A DNA stretch of 64,000 nt from Mobula hypostoma (lineage: Eukaryota): positions 8,866,001 to 8,930,000 of the forward strand of contig NC_086108.1 of the NCBI RefSeq assembly GCF_963921235.1, in the 5' to 3' direction. The translations under genes were made by a program, and so were the position numbers. Positions 10,866 through 62,544 of the stretch are shown here, one piece after another. Within the stretch, counting starts at the first letter, position 1; the number at the start of each line of letters is the position of its first letter. Under the pieces are notes generated by a model that did no database searches, had not been told where the DNA came from, and saw only the letters and a list, made by a program, of their open reading frames with translations.

Positions 10866-11005
10866 TGTGTTGGTAGGTGGAACAGAGAGCAGGACATGAA
10901 GGGAATACACATTGAAAAGGAGGAAATAGCACAGGAAGGGGATAGGTGTGACAAGCCCATAACACAAGCTCTAAATCTTGTTCTGAACAATGCTGTAATA
11001 CTAAC

Positions 11006-11072
11006 CTTTAAAGCCCGGAGTGAACCAACAAGCTCATCACTGAGTTTCACTTCAAGGTCAGGGTCCTCATAT
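11006..11072 (-). CDS. NOP53: NOP53 exon 10 (YEDPDLEVKLSDELVGSLRALK)
   Basis: ttccag acceptor, AAG|GTTAGT donor, 67 nt, phase-consistent. Confidence 0.94.
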
Positions 11073-12391
11073 CTGGAAGGAAAGCAAGTACACTCAGTAA
11101 GCTAAATACTGTAATTAGAGTCTAGGGCAGGGTCCATGACATAGAAAGGTTGGGAACCCCTGCTACAGAGGTACAGACAGGGCAAATACAAGCAGGATTT
11201 TTTCCTCTGAGTTTCAGTGAGACTAGAATGAGAAGTCATAGGCTAAGGGTGAAAGGTGAAATGCTTAAGGGAACATGAACTTCTTCCCTCAGAGGGTGGT
11301 GAGAGTGTGGAACGAGCTGCTAGTGGAAGTTGTGGATACGGGTTCAATTGCAACATTTAAGAGAAGTTTGGACAGGAGGAGGGGTAGAAGTAGATAGAAT
11401 AATAGTTCAGCATGGACTAGATGGGCTGAAGGGCCTGTGACTGTGTTGTAGTGCTAGATGCTAAAAACCAGAATTTAAAAAAATACAAGATCCTAATCCA
11501 ATTAGTAGATCCCACACGGATAGCACCGACAGAATGGTCAGAATCAGAATAAGGTTTAGTATCACTGGCATATGTCATGAAATTTGTTGTTTTGTGGCAG
11601 CGGTACAATGCAGTACACAATATTAAAAATGTAAATTACACAAAGAAATATATACAAATTATATTAGTAATGCAAAAAGAAAGCAAAAAAAGTGAGTGAG
11701 TGTACGAGTTCACTGTCTAGTCAGAAAATGAATGGTGCAGGGAAAGAATGTTCCTCAGGCTCCTGTACCTCCTCCGTGAGGTAACGATGAGAAGAGGGCA
11801 TGTCCCGGGTCATTAATGAAGAAGGCTACTTTGTTGTGGCATTGCCTTTTGAAGATGCTGAGAGGTCAATACTCCCTTAAAACACCTGGTTTAATATTCC
11901 TTCATGTATTCCACCGCAGAACTACCTCCGTAGCCAGTGGTCTCTCCCCCTTGCAGGAAAGCAGTATCCATCATCAGGGACCTCCACCACCCAGGACGTG
12001 CTCCCTTCTCACTGTGCCACCAGGAAGAAGGTACAGGAGCTTCAGGAGTCACACCACCAGGTTCAGGAACAGTTATTACCCCACAATCATCAGGCTCCTG
12101 AACCACAGGGAATAACTTAACTCAACTTCATTTAACCCATCACTGAAATGTTCCCACAACCAATGGATATTTCATCTCATATTTATTGCAGTGCCTCAAG
12201 AAGGCGGCGTCCATCATTAAGGACCCCCATACCCCAGGACATGTCCTCGTTTCATTGCTACCATCAGGGAGGAGGTACAGAAGTGTGAAGACGCACACTC
12301 AATGATTCAGGAACAGCTTCTTCCCCGCTGTCATCAGATTTCTGAATGGACATAGAACCCTTGAACACTACCTCACTGCATTTTTAATTAC

Positions 12392-14810: not shown

Positions 14811-15194
14811 ATAGAGGTCACAGGGAGAACTTACGAACTCCTTGCAGACAGCGGCAGGTATTGAATCCGGGTCACTGGCGTTATAAAGCATTACGCTAAC
14901 CACTATGCTTTCAACAATGACCATAACGCATCAAGTGACCTATCAATCAGCAAAATCACAGAGCACTGAGTGTGTTCAAAGCCGAGAGGGGTGGATATTT
15001 GGTCACGAAGGATTTGTAACCGGGGGAGCAGACTCAAGGGGCTTTTCGTGTTAGGTTAAATATTTTCAAAGTAAAAGAATTGAGACTGACCAGCGGGGTC
15101 ATCCTGAGCACTGGGGGACAGACTCCGCCCAGCACTCCAACGATCATACTCCTAGCAGACAGACCATACACAGAGGAAATGCCAGAATGCTTAC

Positions 15195-15370
15195 TTCAAC
15201 CGGCCCAGTCTTCGGGGCTTGCTGGCTTCCGCCCTCCGTTTCTCCGCACGCCCGGCTTTCCTCTTTGCCAGCTCAACCTCCAGCTGCCTCACCTCGCCCT
15301 TGATGGAGCGGAGGCGGAAGAGCTGCTGCTGCCTCTCCTGTGCCTGCTTCAGCTGCTTCAGCTTCTGGTC
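15195..15370 (-). CDS. NOP53: NOP53 exon 9 (DQKLKQLKQAQERQQQLFRLRSIK...KPRRLGRLK)
   Basis: ttttcag acceptor, AA|GTAAGC donor, 176 nt; LFRLR.IK and KPRRLGRLK motifs. Confidence 0.95.
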
Positions 15371-28654: not shown

Positions 28655-29070
28655 TTCTGTCTGGGTAGCCTCCAACCTGATGGCATGAATGTCGATTTCT
28701 CCTTCTGGTAAAAACAAATTACCCCTCTCCCCTCTTCTATTCCCCTCTTCTCACCTTCCTATATCCTTCTCCTGGTGCCCTTCCTCCTTCCCTTTCTCCT
28801 ATGGTCCACTCTCCTCTTTGTTCTTCTCCAGCCCTTGATCCTTCCCTCCCACCTGGCTTCTCCTATCACCATCCAGCTAACCTCCTTCCCTTCCCCCCAC
28901 CATCTTATTCTGGCATCTTCCCCCTTCCTTTCCAGTCCTGAAGAAGGGTCTCAGCCCATAACATTGACTGTTTATATGTTTCCATTGATGCTGCCTGACC
29001 TGCTGAGGTCCTCCAGCATTTTGTGCGTGTTGCTTTGGATTTCCAGCATTGGAAGAATTTCTGCTGTTTA
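28655..29070 (+). mobile_element. Penelope-like 3' fragment
   Basis: CTGGGTAGCCTCCAACCTGATGGCATGAA (GSLQPDGM) followed by a pyrimidine-rich UTR and a degenerate terminal repeat. Confidence 0.75.
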
Positions 29071-29329: not shown

Positions 29330-29895
29330 TAGACACTTCACCTACGAGTCTGTTGGTGTCATTTACTGTATCTGGTGCTCCTGGTGTGGCCTCCTGTATA
29401 CTGGTGAGACCCGAAATAGAGTGGGAGACCACTTCACCGAGCAGCTGTGCTCCGTCCGCCAGGAAAAGCGGGATCTCCCAGTGGCCAACCATTTGAATTT
29501 CGCTTCCCATTCCAACATGTCAATCCACGGCCCCCTCTACTGTCGCGATGAGGCCACACTCAGGTTGGAGAAGCAACACTTTATATTCCGCCTGGGCAGT
29601 CTCTAACCTGACGGCATGAACATCGATTTCTCGGACTTCCGGTAATGCCCCCACCTCTCCTTCCCCATTTCCCATCCCCTTTTCCCTCTCTCGCCTATCT
29701 CCCTGCTTGCCCATCACCCCCCTCTGGTGCTCCTCCCTCTTTCCTTTCTTCTATGGCCTTCTGTCCTCTCCTATTAGATTCCCCCATCTCCAGCCCTGTA
29801 CCAATCAGCTTCCCAACCCTTCACCCCTCGCCTGGTTTCAACCATCACCTTCTGTTTCTCCCTCTCCTCCCCCTACCTTCTAACTCACTCATCTT
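29330..29895 (+). mobile_element. Penelope-like GIY-YIG fragment
   Basis: ORF 29268-29606 contains VIYCIWCSWCGLLYTGETR...RLEKQHFIFRLGSL. Confidence 0.8.
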
Positions 29896-31470: not shown

Positions 31471-32021
31471 AAATCTTTCCTTATAACTCAGGTCCTCCAA
31501 TCCCAGCAACATCCCTGTAAATTTTCTCTGTACTCTTTCAATCTTGTTTATATCTTTCCTGTAGTTAAGTGACCAAAACTGCACACAACACTCCAAATTA
31601 GGCCTCACCATTGTCTTCTACAACTTTAACATAACATCCCATCTCCAGTACTCAATACTTTGATTTATGAAGGTCAATGTGGCAAAAGCTTTCTTTACAA
31701 CCCTACCCGTGTCGCAACATTCAACAAATTATGGACCTGTATCCCCAGATCCCTTTTGTTCGACCACACTCCTCAATGCTCTACTGTTCACTGTGTAAAA
31801 CCTACCCTGGTTGGCATACCAAAGTGCAAAACCTCACACTTGTCTGTATTAAATTCCATCTGCCTTTCCTCAGCCCATTTTTCCAGCTGATGCAGATCCC
31901 TCTCCAAGCCATGATAGCCTCTGCCCGTGTGCAGGAATATTTTTTCCAGGCAACAGACATAGTCTTCCATGTCACTGTAAGCTGTGTTGCCAGGACACAA
32001 CACAGCCTTTCATCAGCATAC

Positions 32022-32117
32022 CTGATGAGCTTCAAATGTTGGGTTGTACGAACCGCCTGGGGCAATCACTTCTATCGCAGACACTTGCGAGGGTCTCTGG
32101 TTCAGTTTCTCTGGGCG
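32022..32117 (-). CDS. NOP53: NOP53 exon 6 (RPEKLNQRPSQVSAIEVIAPGGSYNPTFEAHQ)
   Basis: Strong polypyrimidine acceptor, CAG|GTATGC donor, 96 nt; conserved G.SYNP.FE.HQ motif. Confidence 0.95.
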
Positions 32118-32299
32118 CTGTGTAAGAGAAAGAACAAAAATTAAAGGAGTTTGTATCCTGTGATGCAACAAAAAAATCATATTTATTCATATCCAGACTG
32201 AAAACATTTCAAGATATGAAAAAAACACTCTTTGCTCACTGCAGAAGAAAGAACTGTGACTAGATTATTGTCCTACCTCATTCAGTGTAAAAGACAGTG

Positions 32300-35524: not shown

Positions 35525-36746
35525 CTCAAAAGACACAAGTAAACACAGCTGAGTGAAGCTACTTGCAATGATATAAAAAATACACAAAAAAATCAGCCAT
35601 AAGGAAAAACAGTAAATGCTGGGAAAAAGACCATAAGACATAGGAGCAGAATTAGGCCATCAAGCCCGCTCCGCCATTCTATCATGGCTGATTTATTATC
35701 CCTCTCAAGCCCATTTTCCTGCCTTCTCTCCTTAACCTTTGGCACTCCTACTAATCAAGAACCTATCAACCTCTGCTTTAAATATACCCAATGAACTGGC
35801 CTCCACTACCATTTGTGGCAATGAATTCCACAGACGCAGCACCATCTTTGTTCTAACTGAATGCCCCTCCAGTCTGAGGCCATGCTCTCTGGTCCTACAC
35901 TCCCCTACTATAGGAAACATCCTCACCGCATCCACTCTACCATGGCCTTTCAATATTCGATAGGTTTCAATGAGATGCCCTCCACCCCTCAACCGGAGAT
36001 GTCTACAAAGCACTGGCCCGGTCTGTAAACTGCCGTGAGATGTTCTCATTGCGTCAGCCAAACACAAGACAATGTGGGTTATGTTAACCTGCCTAGATCA
36101 AGCCAGGCAACACCAAGTTATTATGACTGAGATCAAGGAAGCTTCCAAACCAGGTGGATTCTGATACTTAGCACAAACTTTGGAGAGCGCGGTAGCATAA
36201 TGGTATTTCAGTGCCAGTTTCAATTCCACTGACTGTAAGGCATTTGTACCCCTTGAGAGTGTGGGTTTCCTCCCGCATTCCAGCTCACTGGGTTGGGGAA
36301 GGCCTGTTACAGTACTGTATCTCGAAGTCCTACCCTATGTCCCCGTCACTGAGAGGTGGAAATGGGTACGGCCGGCTTACAGGGCTCTGGTGAAGCCATA
36401 CAGGCCAATCCCCTTACTATCTCTTATTCTCTTACTATCTCTTCTCTCAGTTAGCTCTGACGAAGGGTCCCAGCCCGAAACGTCGACTATACCTCTTCCT
36501 ATAGATGCTGCCTGGTCTGCTGCGTTCACCAGCATTTTTTGAATATCAGATAAGTGCCTGTTTCCTAGTTCCAAGCTGCATTTTAAATTTAATCTGCAAT
36601 CCATATTCAGATCTGCAGGTCGGTTGCTAAAGTTAATGTTCGCTACATACAGTATCTACCAAAATACACCCTACAGATCAAACCTTGCAAGGTGCATGTA
36701 GCAGACAATGAACACGCTCACACAAAATTGTGAAACTCTCTCTTAC

Positions 36747-36934
36747 TTGTGTTTGACCAAAGGTCATAGAAGCCTCGAGTGGGGTCATTGTTGGCGCTGG
36801 GCTTTGCTATCACTGCAGGCTTCTTCAGCCTGGCGAACAGCAGCCGTTCTTTCCGACGGACAATCCCAAAACGCTTCTCCTGGTCCGCTTTCTTCCTCAG
36901 CTTCCGACTGTTGGGAATCTGATGCGCTAAAATA
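36747..36934 (-). CDS. NOP53: NOP53 exon 4 (ILAHQIPNSRKLRKK...RGFYDLWSNT)
   Basis: caccag acceptor, A|GTAAG donor, 188 nt; LAHQ.PN and FYDLW motifs. Confidence 0.94.
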
Positions 36935-37089
36935 CTGGTGAGGATAGGATATACAAAAAAATTACACCTCTCTTGAAAAAGGAATGTTAGGCTGAAGATT
37001 ACAATAAAACATTTGATAAAATAAATGCAACATACATCAAAGTTGCTGGTGAACGCAGCAGGCCAAGCAGCAACTATAGGAAGAGGCGC

Positions 37090-37125
37090 AGTCGACGTTT
37101 CAGGCCGAGACCCTTCGTCAGGACT
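37090..37125 (-). ncRNA. Minimal type I hammerhead ribozyme motif (left arm, sense to NOP53 pre-mRNA)
   Basis: Exact reverse complement of 40309-40344. Confidence 0.8.
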
Positions 37126-40100
37126 AACTGAAGGAAGAGTGAGTAAGGGATTTGAAAGCTGGAGGGGGAGGGGGAGATGCAAAATGATAGGAGAAGACAG
37201 GAGGGGGAGGGATAGAGCCGAGAGCTGGACAGGTGATAGGCAAAAGGGGATACGAGAGGATCATGGGACAGGAGGTCTGGGAAGAAAGACAAGGGGGGGG
37301 GTGACCCAGAGGATGGGCAAGAGGTATATTCAGAGGGACAGAGGGAGAAAAAGGAGAGTGAGAGAAAGAATGTGTGCATAAAAATGAGTAACAGATGGGG
37401 TACGAGGGGGAGGTGGAGCTTTAGCGGAAGTTAGAGAAGTCGATGTTCATGCCATCAGGTTGGAGGCTACCCAGACGGAATATAAGGTGTTGTTCCTCTA
37501 ACCTGAGTGTAGCTTCATCTTTACAGTAGAGGAGGCCGTGGATAGACATGTCAGAATGGGAATGGGATGTGGAATTAAAATGTGTGACCACTGGGAGATC
37601 CTGCTTTCTCTGGCGGACAGAGCGTAGATGTTCAGCAAAGCGGTCTCCCAGTCTGCGTCGGGTCTCACCAATATATAAAAGGCCACATCGGGAGCACCGG
37701 ACGCAGTATATCACCCCAGTCGACTCACAGGTGAAGTGATGCCTCACCTGGAAGGACTGTTTGGGGCCCTGAATGGTGGTAAGGGAGGAAGTGTAAGAGC
37801 AGGTGTAGCACTTGTTCCGCTTACACGGATAAGTGCCAGGAGGGAGATCAGTGGGGAGGGATGGGGGGGACGAATGGACAAGGGAGTTGTGTAGGGAGCG
37901 ATCCCTGCGGAATGCAGAGAGAGGGGGGGAGGGAAAGATGTGCTTAGTGGTGGGATCCCGTTGGAGGTGGCGGAAGTTACGGAGAATAATATGTTGGACC
38001 CGGAGGCTGGTGGGGTGGTAGGTGAGGACCAGGGGAACCCTATTCCTAGTGGGGTGGTGGGAGGATGGAGTGAGAGCAGATATACGTGAAATGGGGGAGA
38101 TGCGTTTAAGAGCAGAGTTGATAGTGGAGGAAGGGAAGCCCCTTTCTTTAAAAAATGAAGACATCTCCCTCGTCCTAGAATGAAAAGCCTCATCCTGACA
38201 GCAGATGCGGCGGAGACGGAGGAATTGCGAGAAGGGGATGGCGTTTTTGCAAGAGACAGGGTGAGAAGAGGAATAGTCCAGATAGCTGTGAGAGTCAGTA
38301 GGCTTATAGTAGACATCAGTGGATAAGTTGTCTCCAGAGACAGAGACAGAAAGATCTAGAAAGGGGAGGGAGGCGTCGGAAATTACCAGGTAAACTTGAG
38401 GGCAGGGTGAAATTTGGAGGCAAAGTTAATAAAGTCAACGAGTTCTGCATGCTTGCAGGAAGCAGCGCCAATGCAGTCGTCGATGTAGCGAAGGAAAAGT
38501 GGGGGACAGATACCAGAATAGGCACGGAACATAGATTGTTCCACAAACCCAACAAAAAGGCAGGCATAGCTAGGACCCATACGGGTGCCCATAGCTACAC
38601 CTTTAGTTTGGAGGAAATGGGAGGAGCAAAAGGAGAAATTAAGAGTAAGGACTAATTCCACTAGACGGAGCAGAGTGGTGGTAGAGGGGAACAAAGCTTT
38701 CTCAAAGTTCTACGCTTCTTTTTGGATTCCAGACCTAATCAGTTCCCCTCTACCACCACTCTGCTCCGTCTAGCGGAATTAGTCCTTACTCTTAATAATT
38801 TCTCCTTTTGCTCCTCCCATTTCCTCCAAACTAAAGGTGTAGCTATGGGCACCCGTATGGGTCCTAGCTATGCCTGCCTTTTTGTTGGGTTTGTGGAACA
38901 ATCTATGTTCCGTGCCTATTCTGGTATCTGTCCCCCACTTTTCCTTCGCTACATCGACGACTGCATTGGCGCTGCTTCCTGCAAGCATGCAGAACTCGTT
39001 GACTTTATTAACTTTGCCTCCAAATTTCACCCTGCCCTCAAGTTTACCTGGTAATTTCCGACGCCTCCCTCCCCTTTCTAGATCTTTCTGTCTCTGTCTC
39101 TGGAGACAGCTTATCCACTGATGTCTACTATAAGCCTACTGACTCTCACAGCTATCTGGACTATTCCTCTTCTCACCCTGTCTCTTGCAAAAACGCCATC
39201 CCCTTCTCGCAATTCCTCCGTCTCCGCCGCATCTGCTGTCAGGATGAGGCTTTTCATTCTAGGACGAGGGAGATGTCTTCATTTTTTAAAGAAAGGGGCT
39301 TCCCTTCCTCCACTATCAACTCTGCTCTTAAACGCATCTCCCCCATTTCACGTATATCTGCTCTCACTCCATCCTCCCACCACCCCACTAGGAATAGGGT
39401 TCCCCTGGTCCTCACCTACCACCCCACCAGCCTCCGGGTCCAACATATTATTCTCCGTAACTTCCGCCACCTCCAACGGGATCCCACCACTAAGCACATC
39501 TTTCCCTCCCCCCTCTCTGCATTCCGCAGGGATCGCTCCCTACACAACTCCCTTGTCCATTCGTCCCCCCCATCCCTCCCCACTGATCTCCCTCCTGGCA
39601 CTTATCCGTGTAAGCGGAACAAGTGCTACACATGCCCTTACACTTCCTCTCTCACCACCATTCAGGGCCCCAAACAGTCCTTCCAGGTGAGGCATCACTT
39701 CACCTGTGAGTCGACTGGGGTGATATACTGCGTCCGGTGCTCCCGATGTGGCCTTTTATATATTGGTGAGACCCGACGCAGACTGGGAGACCGCTTTGCT
39801 GAACATCTACGCTCTGTCCGCCAGAGAAAGCAGGATCTCCCAGTGGCCACACATTTTAATTCCACATCCCATTCCCATTCTGATATGTCTATCCACGGCC
39901 TCCTCTACTGTAAAGATGAAGCCACACTCAGGTTGGAGGAACAACACCTTATATTCCGTCTGGGTAGCCTCCAACCTGATGGCATGAACATCGACTTCTC
40001 TAACTTCCGCTAAGGCCCCACCTCCCCCTCGTACCCCATCTGTTACTCATTTTTATGCACACATTCTTTCTCTCACTCTCCTTTTTCTCCCTCTGTCCCT

Positions 40101-40308
40101 CTGAATATACCTCTTGCCCATCCTCTGGGTCACCCCCCCCCTTGTCTTTCTTCCCAGACCTCCTGTCCCATGATCCTCTCGTATCCCCTTTTACCTATCA
40201 CCTGTCCAGCTCTCGGCTCTATCCCTCCCCCTCCTGTCTTCTCCTATCATTTTGCATCTCCCCCTCCCCCTCCAGCTTTCAAATCCCTTACTCACTCTTC
40301 CTTCAGTT

Positions 40309-40344
40309 AGTCCTGACGAAGGGTCTCGGCCTGAAACGTCGACT
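40309..40344 (+). ncRNA. Minimal type I hammerhead ribozyme motif in the Penelope-like terminal repeat
   Basis: AGTC-CTGACGA-AGGGTCTCGGCCT-GAAA-CG-TC|GACT: stem I AGTC/GACT, complete core, short stem II, palindromic minimal stem III. Confidence 0.8.
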
Positions 40345-43047
40345 GCGCCTCTTCCTATAGATGCTGCTTGGCCTGCTGCGTTCACCAGCAACTTTGATGT
40401 ATGTTGCTTGAATTTCCAGCATCTGCAGAATTCCTGTTGTTTGTGATAAAATAAATACTCAGTTTTAAACAGAATAAAGCAGGAGAGAAGATAATTCCAG
40501 CCCCTAACTTGGGAACAAATTAGCGAAGGACTGGACCTGCGCACAAAAGCGCCAAAACTCTGATAATTCTACACCTCAACAAATATTGTACATTCTTATA
40601 AAAGCACAGTGGAGAGAATTACTTTGCATCACATCTCAGGCAAGCTGCTTATTCTACTTATACCTGGCGAAGTGCTTAGAGAAGAATCAGGTTTACTGTC
40701 CCTGACATGCTGTGTGTAGTGAAATTAGTTGTTTTGCAGCAGCAGTACATAACTGTAAATTAGTTTAAGTATACGTATATATAAACATACACACATACAT
40801 TTATACATGAACACACACATATATTTCAAAATTTAAATAAGTAGTGCAAAAAAAGAAAAAAACAGTAGTGAGGTAGTGTTCATGGGTTCAATGTCCATTC
40901 AGAAATCTGATGGCGGAGGGGAAGAAGCTGTTCCTGAATCATTGAGTGTGTGTCTTCAGGCTTCTGTACCTCCTCCCTGATGGTAGCAATGAGAAGAGGG
41001 CATGTCCAGGGTGATGGGGGTCTGAATGATGGACACCTATTTCAGGCATCACCTCTTGAAGGTGACCTTGATGGCGACTAGTGCCCACGATGGAGCTGGC
41101 TGAGTTTACAACGCTATACAGCTTTTTCTGATCCTGTGCATTGGAGCCTCCATACCAAGTAGTGAAAGCCAAAGTGATTAGCTGACTCAAGTATTTTATT
41201 ATTTCTATATATCATCAGGTTTCAAGATATAATCACCATTACAGGAATATAACCCATGCATATCAATAGTTAACAGCAATAAGATCTTCAGGGGTTATAC
41301 TTTGTCGAGCCTGTGCTGATCAATATTGTACCCCTGCTTAATAACACCACCACCAATCCTAAACCCAGTGTTCCTCAGCTACAGAATACTCGATCAAATG
41401 TCCACAGACGTACCGTGGAGAGCATTCGAACTGGTTGCATCACCGTCAGGTACACAGGGGGTTGATGCACAGGATCGGAAAAAGCTGCAGAAAGTTGTAA
41501 ACTCAGCCAGCTCCATCATGGGAACTAGCCCATCCAGCATCGACATCTTCAAAAGGCGATGCCGCAAAAAGGTGGCGTCCATCATTAAGGACTCCAATCA
41601 CACAGAACATGCCCTCTTCCCATTGCTACCATCAGGGAGGGGTCACAGGAGCGTGAAGACACACATTCAACATTTTAGGAAGAGTTTTCTCCCCTCTGCC
41701 ATCAGATTTCTGAATGGACAGTGAACCCATAAACATTATCTGTTTTTTGCACTTTTTTAAATATACTTCTTATTGCATCCGATAATCCGATAATTTTTAA
41801 ATTATGTATTGCTGCTGCAAAAACAACATAGTACATTCCAGTTATATTAAACTTGATTCTGATGTATTAAGGAAACTGAAACATAAAGAAAAAATATGGG
41901 AACTGGGGGCTGTGGAGAAGAGACTGGATGAGATTCAAGATTGTTTCCTTACTGAATGGTGAAGCAGGTTCAATAGGACAAATGGCCTTCTTACAGCAGT
42001 GACAGATCTGCCCCCTCTAGTGATGTACACCAGGGCTTCACAGGAATAGGCAGTCTCACCCACAACCATCTCATTGTCATACAGGGAGATCCTTATCCAC
42101 TAGAACTGTAACTCACTGTTACAGAATGAAGGCAGTGTACCCCTAGTGTTCTACACAAGCCTGCAGCCACTGGGAAACTGGGAGCAAAACTTAGGTTGGA
42201 GGCCATGCCTCATATTTCATCTGGGTATCCTCTAACTTGAACATTCATTCCTCTAACATCTGGTAATTTCTCTCCCTACACTCCCCTACCCTCTTCTCTT
42301 CTCCTCTGCTGCCCATCACCTCCCTCTGGTCCCCCTCCTCCTTCCCTTTCTCCCATGATCCACTCTCCTTTCCTATCAGATTTCTTCTTCTTCAGGCCTT
42401 TACCTCTTCCACCTATCACTTCCCAGCTTCTTACTTAATCCCCCTCCCCACCCACCCACCTTCCCCCTCACCTGCTCTCACCTATCTGCTGCCATCTTGT
42501 ACTCCTCTCCCTCTCCCCGCCTTCTGCCCCCTTCCTTTCCAGTCCTAATGAAGGGTTTCAGCCCAAAATGTTGACGTTTGTTTGTGTTATTGATTTGTTT
42601 GTTTATTGAGCTACAGCGCAGAATCAGCCATTCAAGACGCACTGCCCAGCAATCCCTCCACTTAATCCCAGCCTTATTATGGGACAATTTACAATGACCA
42701 ATCAACCTACCAACCCATACGTCTTTGGACTGTGGGAAGAAACCAGAGCACCTGGAGGAAACCCACACGGTCACGGGAAGAACATACAAACTTCTTACAA
42801 GAGTGGAGGGAGTTGAACCTGGGTCGCCTGTACTGCTAAAGCGTTGTGCTAAACACAGCCGCATCATTCCTCTCCACAGACGCTACCTGACCTGCTGAGA
42901 TCCCCAGCATTTTCTGCATTTCCAGCATCTGCAGAATTTCTTGTGTCTAGAATGCCTCATGACTCTGCATGGATTTTTTCTGTTTCACTTCCACAGTAGA
43001 GAACCGCGTTTGTGGAATTTGAATAGCGGAACGTGTCAGAAACTCAC

Positions 43048-43132: not shown

Positions 43133-43620
43133 CTATTAAACAAAAATAAAGCATTATTGACCATGCATAAAGTTTTTAAAAAATCCTTCCCCCTCTTCCT
43201 TTCCAGTCCCAATGAAGAATCTTGGCCCAAAATATCAACTGTTTATTCCCCTCCACAGATGCTGCCTGATCTGCAGAGTTCCTACAGCACTTTGTGTGTG
43301 TTGCCCTAGATTTCCAGCATCTGCAGAATCTCTTGTATTTATCATGTGCCTATCTCCAGTCTCGTGTCTGGCTCCCTTCCCTTCTCCTTCTGTCCATCAC
43401 TTCCCTCTAGTTCCCCTCCTCGTTCCCTTTCTCCCATGGTGAACTCTCCTATCAGATTCATTCTTCAGCCCTTTACCTCTTCCATCCATCACCTCTCAGC
43501 TTCTTACTTCACCACCTTCCTGCTCACCTGCCTTCACCCATCACCTGCTGGCTTGTACTCCTTCCCTTCTTCTTATTCTGACATTTTCCCCCTTCCTTTC
43601 CAGTCCTGATGAAGAGTCTT

Positions 43621-44565: not shown

Positions 44566-47221
44566 TTTATTCTCCTCCACAGACGCTGCCTGACCTGCTG
44601 AGTTCCTCCAGGATTTTGTGTGTTATCCCCGACCTCCAGCACCCGCAGAATCACGTTTATATAAAAAAAACTTGCCAAAAGTATCAACCCAGTTTCCCCA
44701 AGAGTCAACCTAATTCCTCTCTTAAACCTGGATTTTTTCTCTCCCATACATGTTTCCTTTGAGGGAGCAAAGCCAGGATTTAATGACCCACCACCATCAG
44801 ACATAGGAGAAATAGGCCCTTTCGGCCTATCGTTGCCTTGGTGGTGTCCTTCAGTGGCTTCATGCACATCAGCGCTTCATTGGGCCACGAGTTTAGAATC
44901 CGGGGCGGAGGGAGGCAAGCCTTTTGGGGTCTGAAGCCATGTTCTCTGCAAGTCCATAGCTCTCTGAAAGAGGCAACTGCTTTGGGTGGCACCCAGTCTT
45001 TATCCTTTATGAGTCAGGGCAGTGAATATAGAAGTTGGGAAGTCAAGTTTCAGCTGTACGAAACTTTGACACTAACTGGCTGCATCACTGTCTGGTATAG
45101 GGTGGGGCTACTGCATAGGATTGAAGCTGCAGGAAGTTCTAAACTCAAAGTCAGCTCCATCGTGGACACTAGCCTCTGTAGTATCCAGGGCATCTTCAAG
45201 AAGCGATGCCTCTAAAAGGTGGCATTTATCATCAAGGACTCCATCACCCAGGATATGCCCTCTTCTCATTGCTACCATCAGGAAGGAAGTACAGAAGCGT
45301 GAATGCACACACTCAATGATGCAGGAACAGCTTCTGCCATCCAATTTCTGAATGGACACTGAACCCATGAACATTACCTCACTACTTCTTTGCACTACTA
45401 ACTCAATTTAAATATTGGGGGCTTTGGAGAGGGTATAGGAAAGGTTCACCAGGATGCTGCCTGGATTAGAGTACTCGCTACAGGGAGAGATTGGACAAGT
45501 TTGGATTGTCCGCTCTGAAGCAATGTAGCTGAGGGACAACATGATAGGTTAGATAGCCAGACTTTTTCCAAAGCCAAAAATGGCTAATATGTTAATTCAT
45601 TATGTACCATGTCATATGACTTGGGCGATCGTGGTCTCTCCAAGACCATGATTGTTCTGGGCAAATTTTTCTTCTGGGCAGTGTCTTTACAAGAGGGGTG
45701 ACCCCAGCCATTATCAATACTCTTCAAAGATTGTCTGCCTGGTGTCAGTGGTCACATAACCAGAACTTGTGATCTGCACCGGCTGCTCATATGGCCATCC
45801 ACTACCTGCTCCCATGGCTTTACATGACTGTGATTGGGGGGGGGAGGGGGGGAGGAGAGGGGGCTAAGCAGGTGCTACACCTTGCTCAAGGGTGACTTGC
45901 AGGTCAGCGGAGGGAAGGAGCGCCTTACACCTCCTTTGGTAGAGGTGTATCTCCACCATGTATTTCTAATACACGTATGTAAGTCAGTCAGTAAGTAAGT
46001 AAGTAAATATATAAATAAAGGCATAATTTAGGCAGAAGGCAGGAGAGAAAGCAGCGCGCTGAGCGTGTGCAGCTCTCCGGTGAAAAATGATATCGTATCC
46101 GTTAAATAGGGGCCGTGGACAATTCTGATTTGATGGAGAATGGACGTGAAAGCACAGAGGAACATCTGGAGAAATTTCTGAAACGCCCGTTCGCTGCTGT
46201 CGTTACTGTGTGGTCGTGAATCTTTCGGAGGGTAGGCCTCAAAATCCCCGGCCTTGCCTGCTTTTGGCGACTGAGAAGAAGGTTGAATCGTTCGGACAGA
46301 GATGGCGCTCAGTACTCGGTGTCGGAGAGCTGATCAAAGCTCGAAGTTTTCGGATGACTCAGAGTCGGATTGTGGTCGGCATGGCAGGGAGAGCTTTTCT
46401 TCCTTCTCCCGTCTGCGTGAGATGTGGAACATTTGAGAGACTTTGAACTTTACTGTGCTGATGGACTGTTCTTCATCAAGTTATGGTATTGTTACACTGT
46501 TCGTAACGATATGTTATAATTATGTGGTTTTGTCAGTTTTTTCAGTCTTGGTCTGTCCTGTGTTTTGTGATATCACACCGGAGGAAATAATGTATCATTT
46601 CTTAATGCATACATTACTAAATGACAATAAAAGAGGACTGCGTGTCTTTATAATCATAATTTTAAGGTGATTGGAGGAAAGTATAAGAAGGATGTCAGAG
46701 AGTGGTAAAGCCTGCCAGAGGTGGTGATGGAGGTAGATACATTAGGGGCACTTAAGATCTGCCAAGCAGAGGAAAGGAGCACCTTATACCTCCTTTGGTA
46801 GACACACATCTTCACCCCATCACCCATGTAGCTCTCAAAAATAGAATAAATTCAGAAACACAAGAGATTCTGCAGATGCTGGAAATCCAGAGCAATACAC
46901 ACAAAATGCTGGAGGAACTCAGCAGGACAGGCAGCATCAATGGGAAAAAGTCAACATTTCAGGCAGAGACCCTTCATCAGGACTGGAAAGAGAGAAGGAG
47001 AGGTCAGACTAAGAAGGTGGGGGGAGGGGAGGAAGAAGTACAAAATGGTAGGTGATAGGTCAAACCGGGAGAGGGTGGAAAGGGTGACGTAAAGAGCTGG
47101 GAAGCTGATTGGCAAAAGGGACAAAGAGACGGAGAAGGATAAATTCAGTATTGGCTTCAGGCAGTGAAGATTCAGCCTGATGTGCAGGGCATTTCTCTGT
47201 CTGACAGAAGACATTTCTCAC

Positions 47222-47459: not shown

Positions 47460-50050
47460 AAAGTTCTAAGTAAAATTTACTATCAGAGTACATACATGTC
47501 CCCAGATGCTTTTTTTGCAAGCATACTTAGCAAATCTATAGAACAGTAAATGTAAACTGGATCAAGGGAAAACAATGTGTTCAAATACAGATATACATAA
47601 ATAGCAATAAATAACGAGCAGGAAACAACAGGATACAGATTCCTTAAAGTGAGACTATTGGTTGTGGGAACACCAGAAATAGAATGAGTGTAGTTATAAC
47701 CTTTTGTTCAAGAGTCTGATGGTTGAGGGGTAGTAACTGTAACTGAACCTGGTGATGCAAGTCCCGAGGCACTTGTACACTTTACCTGATGGCAGCAGTG
47801 AGAAGAGAGGTGAGGACCTTTGATGATGGGTGCTGCTTTTTTACAGCAACATTTCATGTAGGTGTGCTCAATGGTTCAGTGGGATTTACCTGTGATATAC
47901 CGGCCAAATCCACTCAAAGGTATTGGTGTTCCCATAACAGGCCATGGTGCAGTCAGTCAGCACACTTCCCACGATACACCTACAGGAAATTGCCAGCATT
48001 TCTGATGACATGCTGAATCTCCACAGATTCCTGAGTAGAGGCACTACTGTGCTTTCTTCGCAATTGTATTTATATGACGGGTCCAGGACAGGTCTTCTGA
48101 GATAGTGACACCCAGAAGTTCAAAGTTACTGATCCGCTCCACTTCTGATCTTCTGATGATTACTGGTTCATGGACTTCTGATTTCCCTCTCCTGAGGTTT
48201 ACAATCAGTTCCTTGGTCTTAATGACATTGAGTGAGAGGTTGTTGTTATTACACCACTCAGCAAGATTTCAATCTCCCTCCTGTATGCTGATTCATCACC
48301 ACCTTTGATACAGCCCACAACGGTGGTGTCATCAGCAAACTAGTATATGGTGTTGGAGCTGTACTTAGCCACACAGTCATAGGTGTAAAGCGAGTAGAGC
48401 AGAGGGCTAAGTACACATCCCTGTGGTGCACTGTGCTGATGGAGATTGTGGAGATGTTTTTGCCAATCAGAACTGACTGGGGTATTGAGACCCCGGTCTA
48501 GTTAACTGATTAGTTTTGAGGGGACGATGATATTAAATGCTGAGCTACAGTCAATAAACAGCTTCACTTCCACATCTGGACATCTTTGCTGTCCAGATGT
48601 TCCAGGGTTGTGTGAAGAGTCAACAAAATAGCATCTGCTGTAGACCTGTCGCTTCAGTAGGCAAATTGAAACCGATCCAAGCTGCCACTCAGACAGGAGC
48701 TGATATGCTTCAACACCAGCCATTAAAACACTTCATCACAGGACGGTAGTCTTTGAGACAGGTTACCATGCTCTTCTTGGGCACCAGTATAATTGAAGCC
48801 TGCTTGAAGCAGGTGGATACAACACACTGCTGGAGCCAGAGGTTGAAGATATCTGTGAAAACACCAGCCAGCTGGTCGGCACAGGTCTTCAGTACTCGGC
48901 TAGGGACTCCATCCAGATCAGATTCTTTCCTTGGATTCGCTCTCTTGAAGGCAGCCTGCACGTCATCTTCAGATACTGAGACCAAAGGATCATCAGGAGA
49001 CGTAAGGATACGTGATAATTCCTCACTATTCCAGGGGTCAAAGTGAGTATAGAAGGCATTGAGCTCATCTGGCAGTAAAGCTCTGCTGTCCCCTATGTTG
49101 CAAGAGATTTAACTTTGTAGGAGGTTATGGCATTCAAACCCTGCCACAGGCTGTCCTCATCGACTCCAGTAGGTCTGGAATCTCTACCTCACTTGTGAGA
49201 TGGCTTTCCAGAGATCATACCTGCACCTCATTCCTGATCTCCAGACTTGAATGCCTCTGATCTGGCTCTCAGCAAATTCCAGATTTCAATGTTCAACCAG
49301 CACTTTTGATTGGGGTAAACCCTGAACGATTTTGTGGGGACACACTTATCCACAGCTGTTTTAATAAAGTCTGTTATTTGTAATTGTTGTAGTCATTCAG
49401 GTCCTCAGATGAGTTCTTGAACTCAGCCTAGCCCACTGACTGAAGGCAATCCTGTAATCGTTCCTCTGCCTTCCACAACCACCTCTTAGTTGTCTTGATC
49501 TCTGGAACCTTGCTCTTTAGGCTGTCTGAATGCCAGCGGTAGGAGTACAGCCAAATGATCTGACTTGCCAAAATGCGGTCTCGGGAAGGAATCACAGGCA
49601 TTCCTTATTACAGTGCAGCGAAGAGTTGGGACCTCTGGTGCAACAGGTTACGTGCTGGTGATAATTGGGCAGGGTTTTCTTCAAACAGGTCTGGTTTGAA
49701 GTCACTGACTATAATTTGAGCAACACACACAAAAAATGCTGGTGAACACAGCAGGCCAGGCTGCATCTATAGGAAGAGGTACAGTCGACGTTTCGGGCCG
49801 AGACTCTTCGTCCTGACAAAGCGCCTCGGCCCGAAACGTCGACTGTACCTCTTCCTATAGATGCTGCCTGGCCTGCTGTGCTCACCAGCATTTTTTGTGT
49901 GTGTTGCTTGAATTTCCAGCATCTGCAGATTTCCTTATGTTTGCAACTATAATTTGACGTGCTGGGATGGACTGTTTCTTGCCAGCAGGCAACATTCTGC
50001 AGTTTCGCGAATGCTTGCTTATAATTAGCCACTGGTGGTATGTACATTAA
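47460..50050 (-). mobile_element. Rex1/Babar-like non-LTR retrotransposon, degenerate, interrupted by the 49720-49945 insertion
   Basis: VLKTCADQLAGVFTDIFN, LFIDCSSAFNIIVP fragments; many stops. Confidence 0.75.
49720..49945. mobile_element. Miniature inverted pair of Penelope-like terminal repeats
   Basis: Inverted arms ~49720-49803 and ~49825-49907 plus a ~38-nt tail; TSD ACTATAATTTGA at 49708-49719 and 49946-49957. Confidence 0.85.
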
Positions 50051-54655: not shown

Positions 54656-55396
54656 ATTATTCTTGTAAGTGTGGAGTTGAGGCAGAGGCAAAGAGGAATT
54701 GAGAAATACAGGTGAGGGAAAGGGGAAAGTAGGAGATATGGAGGGTAGACAGGGTAGCTGGGAGTGTAGATGCTGGAAAAGGAGGACAGAATATGGTGGT
54801 TAAGCTAGTCAAGAGGGAGGAAGAGGATGGATAACGGGGGACTAGAGAGGGTGAAGAGGAGGACAAGGATTGGTGAGGACCGGGAATGGTAGGGTGAAGG
54901 GAGGTCAGGGGCTAACATAGGACAAAAGGCCACTAATTGGGGGAAAGACTAAGCTCTGACCCCTGACCACTGGTCACCAACTTCCAGGCAGAATATTCTC
55001 CATCTACAATCTCTGCCTCCTATTATTTATATTTGCATATACACAGTTTGTTGTCTTCTGCACTCTGGTTAATATTTCATTGATCCTGCTATAGTTACTA
55101 TTATACAGATTTGCTGAGTATGCCCGCAGGAAGATGAATGCCAGGGTTGTATGTGGTGACATACATGTAGTTTGATAATAAAATTTACTTTTGACTCTGG
55201 GCAGATTCAATGGGGACATTTAATAAACTCTTAATATAGGCACATGAATGAAAGAAGAAATGGTGGGTTATGTAGGAGGGATGGATTAGAATGCAGCTAA
55301 AGTACGTTAAAGGATCAACACAACAATGTGGGCCGAAGAGCCTGCACTGTTCACGCTCCCATCATTACCTTCGCCACCCCCTCCCCGTGCACTCAC

Positions 55397-55590
55397 CCCA
55401 CCGTCCTCTCCTGGAGCCGCACGTCCTCCAAGAACTCCTCCACTTCCTTCACATCGCTGTGCTTGGTCCAGTTCTTCTTCTTGTTCTTGTTGAGGCGCCG
55501 GCGACGGTGGGGCGGAACGGCAGGACCGAGAGATCCGGACTCGGAACGGAGTGAGACGAAGCCAGGCGGCTGCTGGCTGATGGCCGCCAT
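55397..55590 (-). CDS. NOP53: NOP53 ribosome biogenesis factor, coding exon 1 (MAAISQQPPGFVSLR...EVEEFLEDVRLQERTVG)
   Basis: ATG at 55590-55588 in a CpG-rich region; the FLEDVRLQERT motif matches the vertebrate NOP53 N-terminus; donor GG|GTGAGT; 194 nt, ends phase 2. Confidence 0.95.
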
Positions 55591-57945: not shown

Positions 57946-59059
57946 ACCATATACACAAGGAAGTCTGCAGATGCTGGAAATCCAGAGCAACACACACAAA
58001 ATGCTGGAGGAACTCAGCAGGTCAGACGGTATGTTTCTCCCATGGCCCACTCTCAGATTCCTTCCTCTCCTGTCCTTCATCTTCCCACCCACCTATCACC
58101 TTTCAGCTATCCTCCTTCCCCTCCCCACAACTTTTTATTCTGGCAACTACCCCCTTCCTGGCCAGTCCTGATGAAGGGCCTCGGCCAGAAACATCGACTG
58201 TCCATTCCAATGCAGGCTGCCTGACCTGCAGAGATTTGTGACAGCCACGAAACAAAAAAAACCATGGAACCCATTCAAAGAAAAACATCAAACCCCCCCA
58301 ACGTGCAAAAAAAATATAAGCAAAAAACACAGCATATAAAAAAATTGTCAACCGTTTTGGACCCCATATCTCAGAAAGGATGTGTTGGCATTGAAGAAAG
58401 TCCAGAGGAGGTTCACAAGGATGATTCCAGGAATGAAGGGGTTAATATATGAGAAGCGTTTGGGAGCTTTAGGCCTGTACTCACTAGAATTTGGAAGAAT
58501 GTGGGGGGATCTCATTCAAACATATCGAATGTTGAAAGGACAGGATAGGGTGGATGTGGAGAGTTTCCTATGGTGCGGATATCCAGCCTCAAAGTCGAGG
58601 GGCAATCCTTTAGCATGGAGGTAAGGAGTAGTGAATCTGTGGAATTCTCTGCCACAGACTGTGGTGGAGGCTAGGTCCGTGGTTACAGTTAAGGTGGAAG
58701 TTGATCGTTTCTTGATTTGTCAGGGCAAGAAGGCAAGGCTATGGGGTTGAGTGGGATATGGGATCAGTCATGATGGAATGGCAGAGCAGACTGAATGGGC
58801 TGAATGGCCTAATTCTGCTCCTATATGTTATGGTCTTATGGTCTAAAACACCAAACCACAAAGTCATCGAAAGAGTCCAGGCATATTCAGTTCAGCTCAA
58901 TGTTTGTTTTCAGCGGGCGCCTCGATTGAAATCACCTAAAATAGCAATAGAGAAAGGAACAACCAGAAATCAGAAAAACATCGTAACACGAACTACAGAG
59001 TCCAACTTACAAACTCCATTGATTAAACCTTGCACAAGGCCCAGGACTGCCCCAGCATC

Positions 59060-60130: not shown

Positions 60131-62544
60131 TGACAGCGAAAGAGCATAAAAGTCGTACTGTGGAGAGCATTCTAACTGGCTGCATCAATGTCTTGTCGGC
60201 GGGGGTGGGGGGGGGTGATACTGCACAGGATCAAAATAAGCTGCAGACAGTCGTGAACTCAATCAGCTCCATCATGGGCATGAGCCTCCGTTGTATCCAG
60301 GGAAACTTCAAGGAGCGATGCCTCATTAAGCCGGCACCCACCATTAATGACCCCCATCACCCAGGGCATGCCCTTTTCTCACTGTTACCATCAGGGAGGA
60401 GGTACAGAAGCCCGAAGACACACACTCAGCGATTCAGGAACAAATTCTTCCCCTCTGCCATCCGAGTTCTGAATGGACTTTGAACCCATGAACAATACTT
60501 CAATATAGTTTTATTTCTATTTTTGCATTACTTATTTAATTTAACTACTTCATATATGTATATATTCATATTTTTCTATTATCATGTATTGCAATGTACT
60601 GCTGATGCCAAGTTAACAAATTTCACGACGTATGCCAGTGATATTAAACCTGATTCTGATTTCATGTCATATAAGTAGAGGATTATAAACCTAACAGAGG
60701 GATGCCCTCTCTTGGGCTAGGCCAAACTGGATGCAATATTCATGATTCCTGACGAAGGGTCTCAGCCCGAAACGTCGTCTGTTTATTCTTCTCCATCGAT
60801 GCTGCCGACCAGCTGAGTTCCTGGATTTCCAAAATCTGCAGATCTCGTGTGTCAGTGGTATTTATTCCCATGTTCAGCAGAGGGCAGCACGAGCCTCAGT
60901 TTCCTTTCCAAGGGGACTGTGTCTCTCCGTTTGCAACGTGTACAGTAACTGCCTGGTGGTTATTCAACCCTGGAAGGTTTCAAGTGTGGATGGATTCACC
61001 CCATAACGTCACAGCCGAAGCTAACAGACGTTGGCAAGGAGCAACTGGACCTCCTCGTGGTTGGCTGTTCTGAGTCAGTGCGTGACTCAGTTCGCCCACC
61101 AGAACTTTCCAAATTCCTGTCACTTCAAGACCAGCAACGTTATTAGGAAAATGTGTGCAATGACTGGGAGTGCAGAAAGCTGTTCTTTATCTCTTTGTCT
61201 TTCAGCTGCAACTATGGCAGCTTAACAAAAATATTTATAGGAAAGACTTCACCCTGCAGAATTCCCAGCTGCAGCCAGTCATCATCTCATCCTTAAACCC
61301 TTTCCTCACTCCCTGGATTTTTAGAACATAGAACATAGAACGTGACAGCACAGTACGGGCCCTTCAGCACACAATGTTGTGCTAGCATTTTAACCTCCTC
61401 TAAGATCAATCTTACCTTTCCCTTACACATAGTTCTCTACCATCCATGTGTCTATCTAAGGGTTTCTTAAATGTCCCTAATGTATCTGCCTCTACCACCT
61501 CCCCTGGCAGAATATTCCACTCAAGCACCAGAGCTCAGGTTCCCCTTAAATATTTCACCTTTCACCCATGACCTCTCCCAACCTCAGTGGAAAAAGTCTG
61601 CTTGCATTTACACTGTCCATACTACTCATGGGAGATCATGTACAGCAATGAACAACACTGTGATTTTCGTTCACCCAGGAGAGCTAGGAGAATGAAACTC
61701 CTTGCCTGAGGGAAGACCGTGGACGGAGGCTCTCACTGCAGTGTGACATAATCCTCTGAATAGGGAGTACTCCTCATTCCCGTGTACGCTGATGGTACGA
61801 AACTTAGTTGGTTTAGTAAATCTTCCGGTTTAAGATGGCGCTGGTGAAACACAGCGACGGCTTATTGGCAGCAAACACAACTACTAACTACTCTATTAAT
61901 TTCACGTTTTCTGGAAAACAAACACTGCAGTCAAGCGCCTGTAACTCCCCTTTCAGAGGTGTGCTTTCGAACTACCTGTAGGACTTGGCGTTTTTGTGGT
62001 GTGAAATTAAGTCTCGAAGGTGCAGGATGGTTGTGGCATGGTGTGTACAGGTTGAATAGAGGCAGCAAGGTTACTATGCTATTATGGATTTATTAAGTAT
62101 GCCTACAAGAAATGAATCGCAGGGTTGTATTTGGTGTCTTCGAGCTTTATCACATGCACATAACCATGCAATGAAATGTACTGTTTGCACTAACAGCTAG
62201 CACAGCCTACCATGTGCTGGGGGCAGCCTGCAAGTGTCGCCACACATTCCAGCACCAACATGGCATACCCACGACGTTTGGTAGAACAACACAAGCAGCC
62301 ACAGTTCTTGCCTCCCATCCATGCACACTTACAGTCCTCCAATCCCCAGGGCAGTCTGTCTCCAGGCTCCAGCCTCCAGCAGACTTGGACTTGCAGACAT
62401 TAGCCCTTCAACATCTGCCTGCAGTGGACTCGGAGATACCAGACTCTTGTCATTAGGCCTTGACTTCTAGACTGCCGATTGACCTCTGAGCTTTGATCTT
62501 TAGAATTGACCTTGAACTCACCAATGTCGACAAATGACAGCCTT

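What the first reader, a model, noticed from the sequence alone, without database searches (positions are those of the whole stretch)
37014..40456. 3.4-kb palindromic Penelope-like insertion with a single TSD, ~90 nt from NOP53 exon 4
Seen: two ~1.65-kb near-identical inverted arms joined at their truncated 5' ends by a ~49-nt unpaired stretch (38693-38741) that is mostly extra right-arm sequence. One 13-bp TSD encloses the pair. The arms differ at scattered sites (TLNF vs TLNNF, PSPPL vs PSPL, CSY vs CPY, VVT vs VAT), which argues against a read fold-back artefact. Known: Penelope-like elements can leave inverted 5'-truncated copies. Inference: one integration event primed reverse transcription from both target strands. 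The NOP53 pre-mRNA would then fold a ~1.65-kb dsRNA hairpin just upstream of the exon 4 branch-point region, a potential ADAR or Dicer substrate and splicing modifier.
Basis: partly seen in the sequence, partly recalled or inferred. Interest (0 to 1): 0.8.

Follow-up and report, generated by a model that had tools for sequence, protein, structure and literature searches.

The report
Inverted Penelope-like retroelement pair in intron
Two near-identical copies of a Penelope-like jumping gene lie head to head inside one target-site duplication in a NOP53 intron, which is the usual way this class of element inserts, so the structure is real but ordinary.

Summary
Arms 37027-38692 and 38700-40443 are inverted and 1649/1669 identical. 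They are joined by a 7-nt filler and enclosed by one 13-bp duplication, TGATAAAATAAAT.

The arms encode the reverse-transcriptase C-terminus and a GIY-YIG endonuclease of a Penelope-like element (PLE) with a Neptune/Nematis-type linker motif. Contigs of two related organisms join 37013 directly to 40444, so they carry an empty site with one copy of the 13-mer. Both arms share five variants absent from 30 other copies. One arm ends at the family's tail-less 3' terminus and the other carries the 36-nt "tail".

Of 29 other sampled copies in this genome, 9 are the same kind of pair. Each has one 11-17-bp duplication and one tail. A mini pair lies at 49708-49957 in the same window.

This is the published hallmark of endonuclease-bearing PLEs. 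The "both strands primed" mechanism matches published in vitro data.

NOP53 runs on the minus strand, and the element lies 92 nt upstream of an exon (36745-36934) that is spliced into an abundant RNA contig. The inner 941 nt fold into a long hairpin, but no effect on editing, small RNAs or splicing could be tested.

Verdict: the structure is already known and of low interest.

The parts
37014..37026 (.). Left copy of the 13-bp target-site duplication TGATAAAATAAAT
   Evidence: D5. A contig of X1 spans 36584-37048 with 0 differences.
37027..38692 (-). Left arm: a 5'-truncated PLE copy whose sense strand is the minus strand (positions 2285-3949 of the copy used as ruler). Its outer end is the tail-less 3' terminus.
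   Evidence: The ORF 37421-38425(-) carries GIY-YIG.
38693..38699 (.). 7-nt filler AAAGCTT at the head-to-head junction. With the next T it forms the 8-nt palindrome AAAGCTTT.
   Evidence: Other copies align only from 38700 onward. The string is not found in the ruler copy.
38700..40443 (+). Right arm: a 5'-truncated PLE copy, sense on the plus strand (ruler positions 2243-3985), including the tail
   Evidence: The ORF 39012-40013(+) carries GIY-YIG.
40408..40443 (+). 36-nt 'tail' extension, present on the right arm only
   Evidence: Other copies end either before or after this stretch.
40444..40456 (.). Right copy of the 13-bp target-site duplication
   Evidence: D5. A contig of X1 spans 40425-40748 with 0 differences. 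Contigs of X5 and X14 join 37013 to 40444.
40306..40345 (+). Hammerhead-like core (helix I, CUGACGA, a 4-bp helix II, GAAA, palindromic ACGU, C17). Its mirror copy lies at about 37089-37128 (-).
   Evidence: Manual parse against the features quoted. Rfam reports no hammerhead.
36745..36934 (-). Context: a neighbouring exon of the minus-strand host gene (NOP53 by its flanking Pfam hits). Its acceptor lies 92 nt from the element.
   Evidence: X10 record 10 (depth 4441) and the joint 35522->36745 with CT..AC ends.

Best explanation
This is a single retrotransposition event of an endonuclease-bearing Penelope-like element (RT plus C-terminal GIY-YIG, with a Neptune/Nematis-type linker).

Proposed mechanism:
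1. The element's endonuclease cut both strands of an AT-rich target 13 bp apart.
2. Each exposed 3' end primed reverse transcription of element RNA. One started at the upstream start site (tail-less end, left arm) and one at the downstream start site (tail-bearing end, right arm).
3. The two cDNAs stopped at reference positions 2285 and 2243.
4. They were joined head to head with 7 filler nucleotides.
5. Repair then duplicated the 13-mer.

Shown: the anatomy, the empty site, the canonical termini, the common origin of the arms, and the frequency of the same architecture in the family.
Inferred: the order of nicks, the two separate priming events, and how the cDNAs were joined.

The insertion is specific to the lineage of the assembled organism. 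It lies in a NOP53 intron, where the pre-mRNA can fold into a hairpin of about 1.66 kb. No consequence of that hairpin has been shown.
For: Anatomy.

PLE identity:
- GIY-YIG on both arms, E 2e-4.
- A longer copy's 744-aa ORF has RVT_1 (E 1.7e-5) followed by GIY-YIG (E 0.002).
- 'VIYCVRCSRCGLLYIGET' and 'CKRNKCYTC' are read and compared with the motif definitions.
- 479-nt pseudo-LTRs flank a 3507-nt unit at one locus.

Empty site: X5 record 27 and X14 record 19 run from 37013 straight into 40444. Their flanks differ by about 3.8% and 3.3% from the window, against 0.84% between the arms.

Filled junctions: X1 contigs cover 36584-37048 and 40425-40748.

Common origin of the arms: at all 20 differing columns one arm carries the state of nearly all of the 22-36 other copies. 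Five states shared by both arms occur in 0 of 30 other copies. A 121-nt probe over these states is 100% identical only in the two arms, among 40 scored candidates.

Family norm: 9 of 29 other loci are head-to-head pairs. All 10 pairs, counting the window, have one duplication of 11-17 bp and exactly one tail. A mini pair in the window shows the same pattern.

Literature (passages read):
- An inverted 5'-truncated copy and a one-sided 30-40-bp tail are typical of PLEs (PMC8557442).
- Inverted pLTR units sit inside 8-10-bp duplications, with an empty-site proof (PMC3846280).
- A PLE protein cleaves and extends both strands, and the tail is the stretch between two RT start sites (PMC11167929).
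Against: - No listed contig or read bridges the central junction or the whole 3.4 kb. All runs were short-read contigs, and X1 may be the sample the assembly came from.
- The Pfam hits for RVT_1 and GIY-YIG lie just under the curated cut-offs.
- No source copy with the five shared variants was found. These variants are clustered within 80 nt, which could instead reflect gene conversion between the arms after insertion.
- Two priming events are inferred from the end positions. They were not observed.
- In vitro, no strand difference in start site was seen, yet every pair here uses one of each.
Confidence: 0.9

Rival explanations
1. A single ordinary insertion of one arm was later copied in inverted orientation at the DNA level. 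The copying could have happened by fold-back replication or template switching during repair, or the single cDNA could have snapped back and copied itself.
For: The five shared private variants lie within 80 nt and no source copy carries them, which would fit one arm being copied from the other. There is an 8-nt palindrome AAAGCTTT at the junction. Arkhipova et al. 2013 discuss self-priming at palindromic junctions.
Against: The left arm ends exactly at the tail-less terminus used by 11 of 17 solo copies, and it abuts the duplication directly. A DNA-level copy of the right arm would carry the tail or flank sequence. All 10 large pairs and the mini pair show the same one-tail pattern. The inner ends are offset by 42 nt.
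Confidence: 0.05
2. Two independent insertions of the same family hit the same site in opposite orientations.
For: The family is abundant, with 3249 first-look candidates, and it prefers AT-rich targets.
Against: A second insertion would carry its own duplication, but the centre holds only AAAGCTT and no copy of the 13-mer. Both arms share five variants seen in 0 of 30 other copies. Both arms are absent together in organisms B and D.
Confidence: 0.03
3. The palindrome is an assembly artefact, such as a chimeric fold-back read.
For: No listed contig bridges the centre. The literature notes that PLE structures cause assembly problems.
Against: Independent contigs of X1 cover both outer junctions, and each shows an outward-facing element 3' end. 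This already requires an internal inversion. The arms differ at 14 substitutions and 2 indels. The same architecture recurs at 9 other loci and once more in the window.
Confidence: 0.02

Closest known systems
Canonical complex insertions of endonuclease-bearing Penelope-like elements, for example Pen2a_Av of Adineta vaga and the scheme in Craig et al. 2021 Fig. 2 (passages read)
   Same: An inverted 5'-truncated copy lies head to head with a direct copy. The whole unit sits inside one short target-site duplication. A 30-40-bp tail is present at one end only. A hammerhead-like motif lies in the terminal repeat region. The ORF is RT followed by GIY-YIG.
   Different: Here both copies are 5'-truncated to nearly the same point (1.67 and 1.74 kb), so the unit is an almost symmetric palindrome without a full ORF or a direct pLTR. 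The duplication is 13 bp, against 8-10 bp in the rotifer cases. The host is a cartilaginous fish, judging by the nearest named proteins.
In vitro insertion reaction of PAc (Poseidon of Anolis carolinensis), Frangieh et al. 2024 (abstract and passages)
   Same: Both target strands are cleaved and extended. There are two adjacent internal RT start sites, and the interval between them equals the genomic tail. The target is AT-rich.
   Different: PAc belongs to the Penelope/Poseidon clade, which lacks the CX2-5CxxC linker motif, while this element has that motif. In vitro, no strand difference in start site was seen. Here every pair (10 of 10 large pairs, plus one mini pair) has one end of each kind.
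L1 'twin priming' 5' inversions
   Same: A second 3' end at the staggered break primes reverse transcription, which yields an inverted segment inside one duplication.
   Different: In twin priming the second primer anneals internally on the RNA, so only one arm carries the element's 3' end. Here both arms carry the 3' terminus, so this is not that structure.
Intronic inverted repeat pairs, for example inverted Alu pairs, as dsRNA, ADAR substrates and splicing modifiers (recalled general knowledge)
   Same: A long, near-perfect inverted repeat lies inside the intron of an expressed gene, close to an exon. A hairpin is predicted.
   Different: No editing, small-RNA or splicing effect was tested or shown here. 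The arms are about 5 times longer than an Alu.

Membership tests
Penelope-like elements with C-terminal endonuclease (EN+ PLE) | A single ORF with a reverse transcriptase followed by a C-terminal GIY-YIG endonuclease | tested here: met
   the 744-aa ORF of a longer copy has RVT_1 at residues 243-397 (E 1.7e-5, 25.1 bits, cut-off 29.6) and GIY-YIG at 647-720 (E 0.002). GIY-YIG on both arms (22.1 bits, cut-off 22.6). Both hits lie just under the curated cut-offs. Homologues carry precomputed PF00078 and PF01541.
Penelope-like elements with C-terminal endonuclease (EN+ PLE) | [quoted passage not shown] | tested here: met
   The translation of both arms reads VIY-CVRCSRC-GLL-YIGET, followed by ...AEHLRS.... 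This is read directly from the sequence.
Penelope-like elements with C-terminal endonuclease (EN+ PLE) | An inverted 5'-truncated copy head to head with another copy, the whole flanked by one target-site duplication | tested here: met
   The empty site in two organisms is shown.
Penelope-like elements with C-terminal endonuclease (EN+ PLE) | [quoted passage not shown] | tested here: met
   A 36-nt tail at 40408-40443 is absent from the left arm. The same holds in 9 of 9 other pairs.
Penelope-like elements with C-terminal endonuclease (EN+ PLE) | Pseudo-LTRs formed by partial tandem copies | tested here: met
   This is met for the family, not for this insertion. At the L006/L032 locus, 479-nt direct repeats (99.6%) lie 3507 nt apart, and L009 is a partial tandem.
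Penelope-like elements with C-terminal endonuclease (EN+ PLE) | A hammerhead ribozyme motif in the terminal repeat | tested here: inconclusive
   Rfam gives no hammerhead hit at the gathering threshold or at E<=10. A manual parse finds CUGACGA, an extra A, a 4-bp helix II (G-C closing pair in the older fragment, G-U in the arms), GAAA and a palindromic ACGU, in line with the min-HHR traits quoted. However, helix II is shorter than the 7-8 bp reported there.
Penelope-like elements with C-terminal endonuclease (EN+ PLE) | The RT groups with PLE and telomerase RTs in a phylogeny | not tested
Neptune / Nematis clades of EN+ PLEs | [quoted passage not shown] | tested here: met
   CKRNKCYTC (CX4CxxC) lies 32 residues before the VIY of GIY-YIG in both arms. 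Clade placement by phylogeny was not tested.
L1-type twin-priming inversion | Only one arm carries the element's 3' end, and the inverted arm comes from an internal priming site | tested here: not met
   Both arms reach the family's 3' termini, at reference positions 3949 and 3985.

The most novel reading that the evidence does not exclude
In vivo, the two reverse-transcription start sites of this PLE may not be free alternatives. They may be split between the two target strands of one event. Every pair examined (10 of 10 large pairs, plus one mini pair) has exactly one tail-bearing and one tail-less end, whereas solo copies are mixed (6 with a tail, 11 without).

If each end chose its start site independently at the solo frequencies, 10 of 10 mixed pairs would be expected about 4 times in 10,000 (my arithmetic from the counts). 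This would point to an asymmetric two-subunit complex, or to one RNA copied twice from adjacent sites. In vitro work saw no strand difference.
Probability: 0.25. Interest if true: 0.4.

Novelty: already known. Interest (0 to 1): 0.18.

Why it matters
As a structure it adds one dated, cleanly documented example of a known architecture, with an empty site in two related organisms, a single duplication and canonical termini. It has modest value in three ways:
- It shows a young, abundant Neptune/Nematis-type PLE family in a cartilaginous-fish genome.
- It gives a small data set (11 pairs) showing that paired ends always differ in tail status.
- It places a 1.66-kb perfect-hairpin-forming insert 92 nt upstream of an exon of a highly expressed housekeeping gene. 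This could serve as a natural test of how long intronic dsRNA is tolerated.

None of this changes what is known about the class.

Tried and rejected
- Rfam search for hammerhead models over the window, the 4.3-kb region and the 231-nt terminal region found none. The miRNA-family hits at 38635-38798 are artefacts of the central hairpin. The UnaL2 hit (E 2.2) is at chance level.
- NCBIfam gave no hits.
- Pfam on the exon ORF 36718-36936(-) gave no Nop53 hit on its own. The gene assignment rests on the flanking exons.
- An interim reading that the family has a fixed 5' end 32 nt upstream of the right arm was wrong. It was the truncation point of the copy used as probe.
- A-to-I editing and expression over the arms could not be read. 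Contigs from thousands of copies pile up on the arms (depth table), and all runs were contigs, not reads.
- No RNA holder is listed on record. X10 is labelled RNA only as a guess, although its GT-AG joint and its depth of 4441, against 12-15 in the DNA run, fit RNA.
- No contig bridging the central junction was among the listed pieces.
- A search for a source copy carrying the five shared variants found none among 40 scored of 431 candidates.
- A test of whether the tail-less arm is always the longer one gave no rule: the tail-bearing arm is longer in 6 pairs and the tail-less arm in 4.
- The search of earlier findings returned nothing for this genome.
Full report
**Observation**

The window holds two inverted arms, 37027-38692 and 38700-40443.
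- The repeat finder reports three collinear inverted blocks of 911, 718 and 55 nt at 98-100%.
- A BLASTN of one half against the reverse complement of the other gives 1649/1669 identities, that is 14 substitutions and two 3-nt indels.
- The 13-mer TGATAAAATAAAT stands directly outside both arms, at 37014-37026 and 40444-40456.
- Of the 49 unpaired central bases, 42 continue the right arm, because other copies of the family align from 38700 onward. The remaining 7 (AAAGCTT) match the family nowhere.
- The right arm carries 36 extra bases at its outer end (40408-40443) that the left arm lacks.

**What the arms are**

- Each arm encodes a 333-334-aa frame with a GIY-YIG domain (Pfam E 2e-4, 22.1 bits against a cut-off of 22.6). 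Upstream of it, in another frame, lies the end of a reverse transcriptase containing YIDD.
- The genome (3.48 Gb, 200 contigs) holds the family in very many copies: 3249 first-look candidates, 40 scored.
- At one locus, 479-nt direct repeats (99.6%) flank a 3507-nt unit, which is a pseudo-LTR arrangement. That copy has two overlapping ORFs of 452 and 744 aa in different frames.
- The 744-aa ORF shows RVT_1 (E 1.7e-5) followed by GIY-YIG (E 0.002).
- It has 2906 relatives at E<=1e-10 among 7995 scored candidates. The nearest ones with source names are from cartilaginous fishes.
- The peptide VIY-CVRCSRC-GLL-YIGET has the cysteines between GIY and YIG that distinguish PLE endonucleases. [quoted passage not shown]
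- Rfam finds no hammerhead. By eye, the terminal region holds a hammerhead-like core. An older, 86%-identical fragment at 36428-36534 keeps the core and has a G-C closing pair in helix II where the arms have G-U. I leave this feature as inconclusive.

**One event**

Four lines of evidence point to a single integration.

1. Empty site. A contig of run X5 (organism B) aligns to 36587-37013 and continues without a break at 40444-40746. A contig of X14 (organism D) does the same (table 8). Their flanks differ from the window by 28/730 (3.8%) and 25/747 (3.3%), whereas the arms differ from each other by 0.84%. The insertion is therefore younger than these splits.

2. Filled junctions. Contigs of X1 (organism A, possibly the assembly's own sample, so not independent) cover 36584-37048 and 40425-40748 with no difference. 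Their depths are 11.7 and 13.7, similar to neighbouring single-copy contigs at 12.4-15.1. Each junction shows an outward-facing element 3' end, which by itself requires an inversion inside.

3. Relationship between the arms. At all 20 columns where the arms differ, one arm has the state of nearly all of the 22-36 other copies and the other arm has a private or near-private state. The left arm has 10 substitutions and 2 indels of this kind, the right arm 4 substitutions. Both arms share five states seen in 0 of 30 other copies, among them the 1-nt deletion that splits the RT and EN frames. A 121-nt probe over these sites is 100% identical only in the two arms, and the next best of 40 scored candidates is 97%.

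4. No second duplication. A second, independent insertion would have left its own duplication at the centre, and there is none.

**The family norm**

I mapped 29 other loci, with flanks extended where needed.
- 9 are head-to-head pairs (L005, L012, L014, L016, L018, L019, L021, L023, L025).
- 17 are solo 5'-truncated copies.
- 2 are tandem or pseudo-LTR forms.
- 1 is rearranged.

All 10 pairs, counting the window, have one exact duplication around the pair, of 13, 14, 13, 13, 14, 13, 17, 11, 16 and 15 bp. In 90 mismatched flank combinations, the longest exact repeat was 4-10 nt.

In all 10 pairs, one arm ends at the tail-less terminus (reference position about 3947-3959) and the other carries the tail (about 3984-3994). 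Among the solos, 6 carry the tail and 11 do not.

Inner junctions show 1-6 nt of overlap in 6 of the 9 other pairs, and 3, 7 or 24 filler bases in the remaining 3. The window's 7-nt filler is within that range.

The window itself contains a second, older mini pair at 49720-49945, with a 12-bp duplication at 49708-49719 and 49946-49957 and the tail on one side only.

**Mechanism and literature**

- Craig et al. 2021 (passages) state that PLE insertions often carry an inverted 5'-truncated copy adjacent at the 5' end, and a 30-40-bp tail at one end only.
- Arkhipova et al. 2013 (passages) describe such units inside 8-10-bp duplications with an allelic empty site. They also discuss self-priming at palindromic junctions.
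- Frangieh et al. 2024 (abstract and passages) show that a purified PLE protein cleaves and extends both target strands. Reverse transcription starts at two adjacent internal RNA sites, and the interval between them is the genomic tail.

The geometry follows from the structure: the top strand was nicked at the right edge of the 13-mer and the bottom strand at its left edge, giving two 3' overhangs that each primed a cDNA. The two priming events, and the joining by template switch or end joining, are inferred.

**Host gene**

Pfam Nop53 matches lie on the minus strand at 55390-55491 (profile positions 1-34), 32001-32123 (164-207; E 6.7e-8 on the ORF), 15194-15370 and 10970-11074. So the insertion lies in an intron of a minus-strand NOP53 gene.

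A contig of X10 (labelled RNA by guess; depth 4441) covers 36745-36934 on the minus strand and joins 36745 to 35522 across a stretch with CT..AC ends, which is GT-AG on the minus strand. The acceptor is at 36934/36935 and the element edge is at 37027, 92 nt upstream in the sense of the gene. The exon number was not checked.

The inner 941 nt of the pair fold as RNA into one long hairpin of -922 kcal/mol, against -284 +/- 7 for 20 shuffles.

Whether this hairpin forms in vivo, is edited or diced, or alters splicing could not be tested. All runs were contigs, and thousands of family copies pile up on the arms. The exon is present in an abundant spliced contig, but the genotype of that sample is unknown.

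**Open points**

- The five shared private variants sit within 80 nt, and no source copy carries them. The source may be missing or unscored, or gene conversion between the arms may have spread a local cluster.
- The left arm has three times as many private changes as the right.
- The strict one-tail-per-pair pattern contrasts with the in vitro report of no strand difference in start site. It is the only aspect here that might add to what is known.

**Verdict**

This is a real, young, lineage-specific insertion with the textbook architecture of endonuclease-bearing Penelope-like elements. It is already known as a kind and of low interest. The functional speculation about NOP53 remains untested.

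Noticed in passing
window 49708-49957: A second, older mini head-to-head pair of PLE 3' ends lies in another intron of the same gene. The arms are 49720-49812 (-) and 49807-49945 (+), 86-87% identical to the reference copy. It has one 12-bp duplication, ACTATAATTTGA, and the tail on the right arm only. The junction falls inside the hammerhead-like motif.
   Followed up: partly
window 38984-39063 (mirror positions in the left arm): Five variants shared by both arms and absent from 30 other copies are clustered within 80 nt. They include the 1-nt deletion that breaks the reading frame. No other copy among 40 scored carries them.
   Followed up: partly
window 36428-36534: A solo 107-nt 3'-terminal PLE fragment, 86% identical to the arms, in direct orientation with the right arm. 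It is an older, separate insertion about 490 nt from the pair, and it keeps the hammerhead-like core.
   Followed up: partly
window 2473-2667, 3999-4093, 10279-10367, 28980-29069, 29334-29657, 43257-43336, 46856-46984, 57958-58021, 60747-60781: Many short 3'-terminal fragments (35-330 nt, 78-94% identity) of this or related PLE families are scattered through the gene region.
   Followed up: no
loci L002, L004, L015, L016, L028 (G000): The 5' ends of copies cluster at reference position 2200-2211 in 5 of 29 loci. L028 carries nine tandem copies (44-nt period) of the first 33 nt at that end.
   Followed up: no
locus L016/L034 (G000:C5): The inverted partner arm of this pair has an internal gap in its match to the reference copy, between positions 2554 and 3017.
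   Followed up: no
window 35627-35750 and 40748-41031: Contig depth is very high in all four runs and there are many loose ends. These are other high-copy repeats, shared by organisms A, B and D.
   Followed up: no
window 37027-38692 versus 38700-40443: The left arm carries 12 private changes (10 substitutions, 2 indels) and the right arm 4. The asymmetry is not significant and is unexplained.
   Followed up: no
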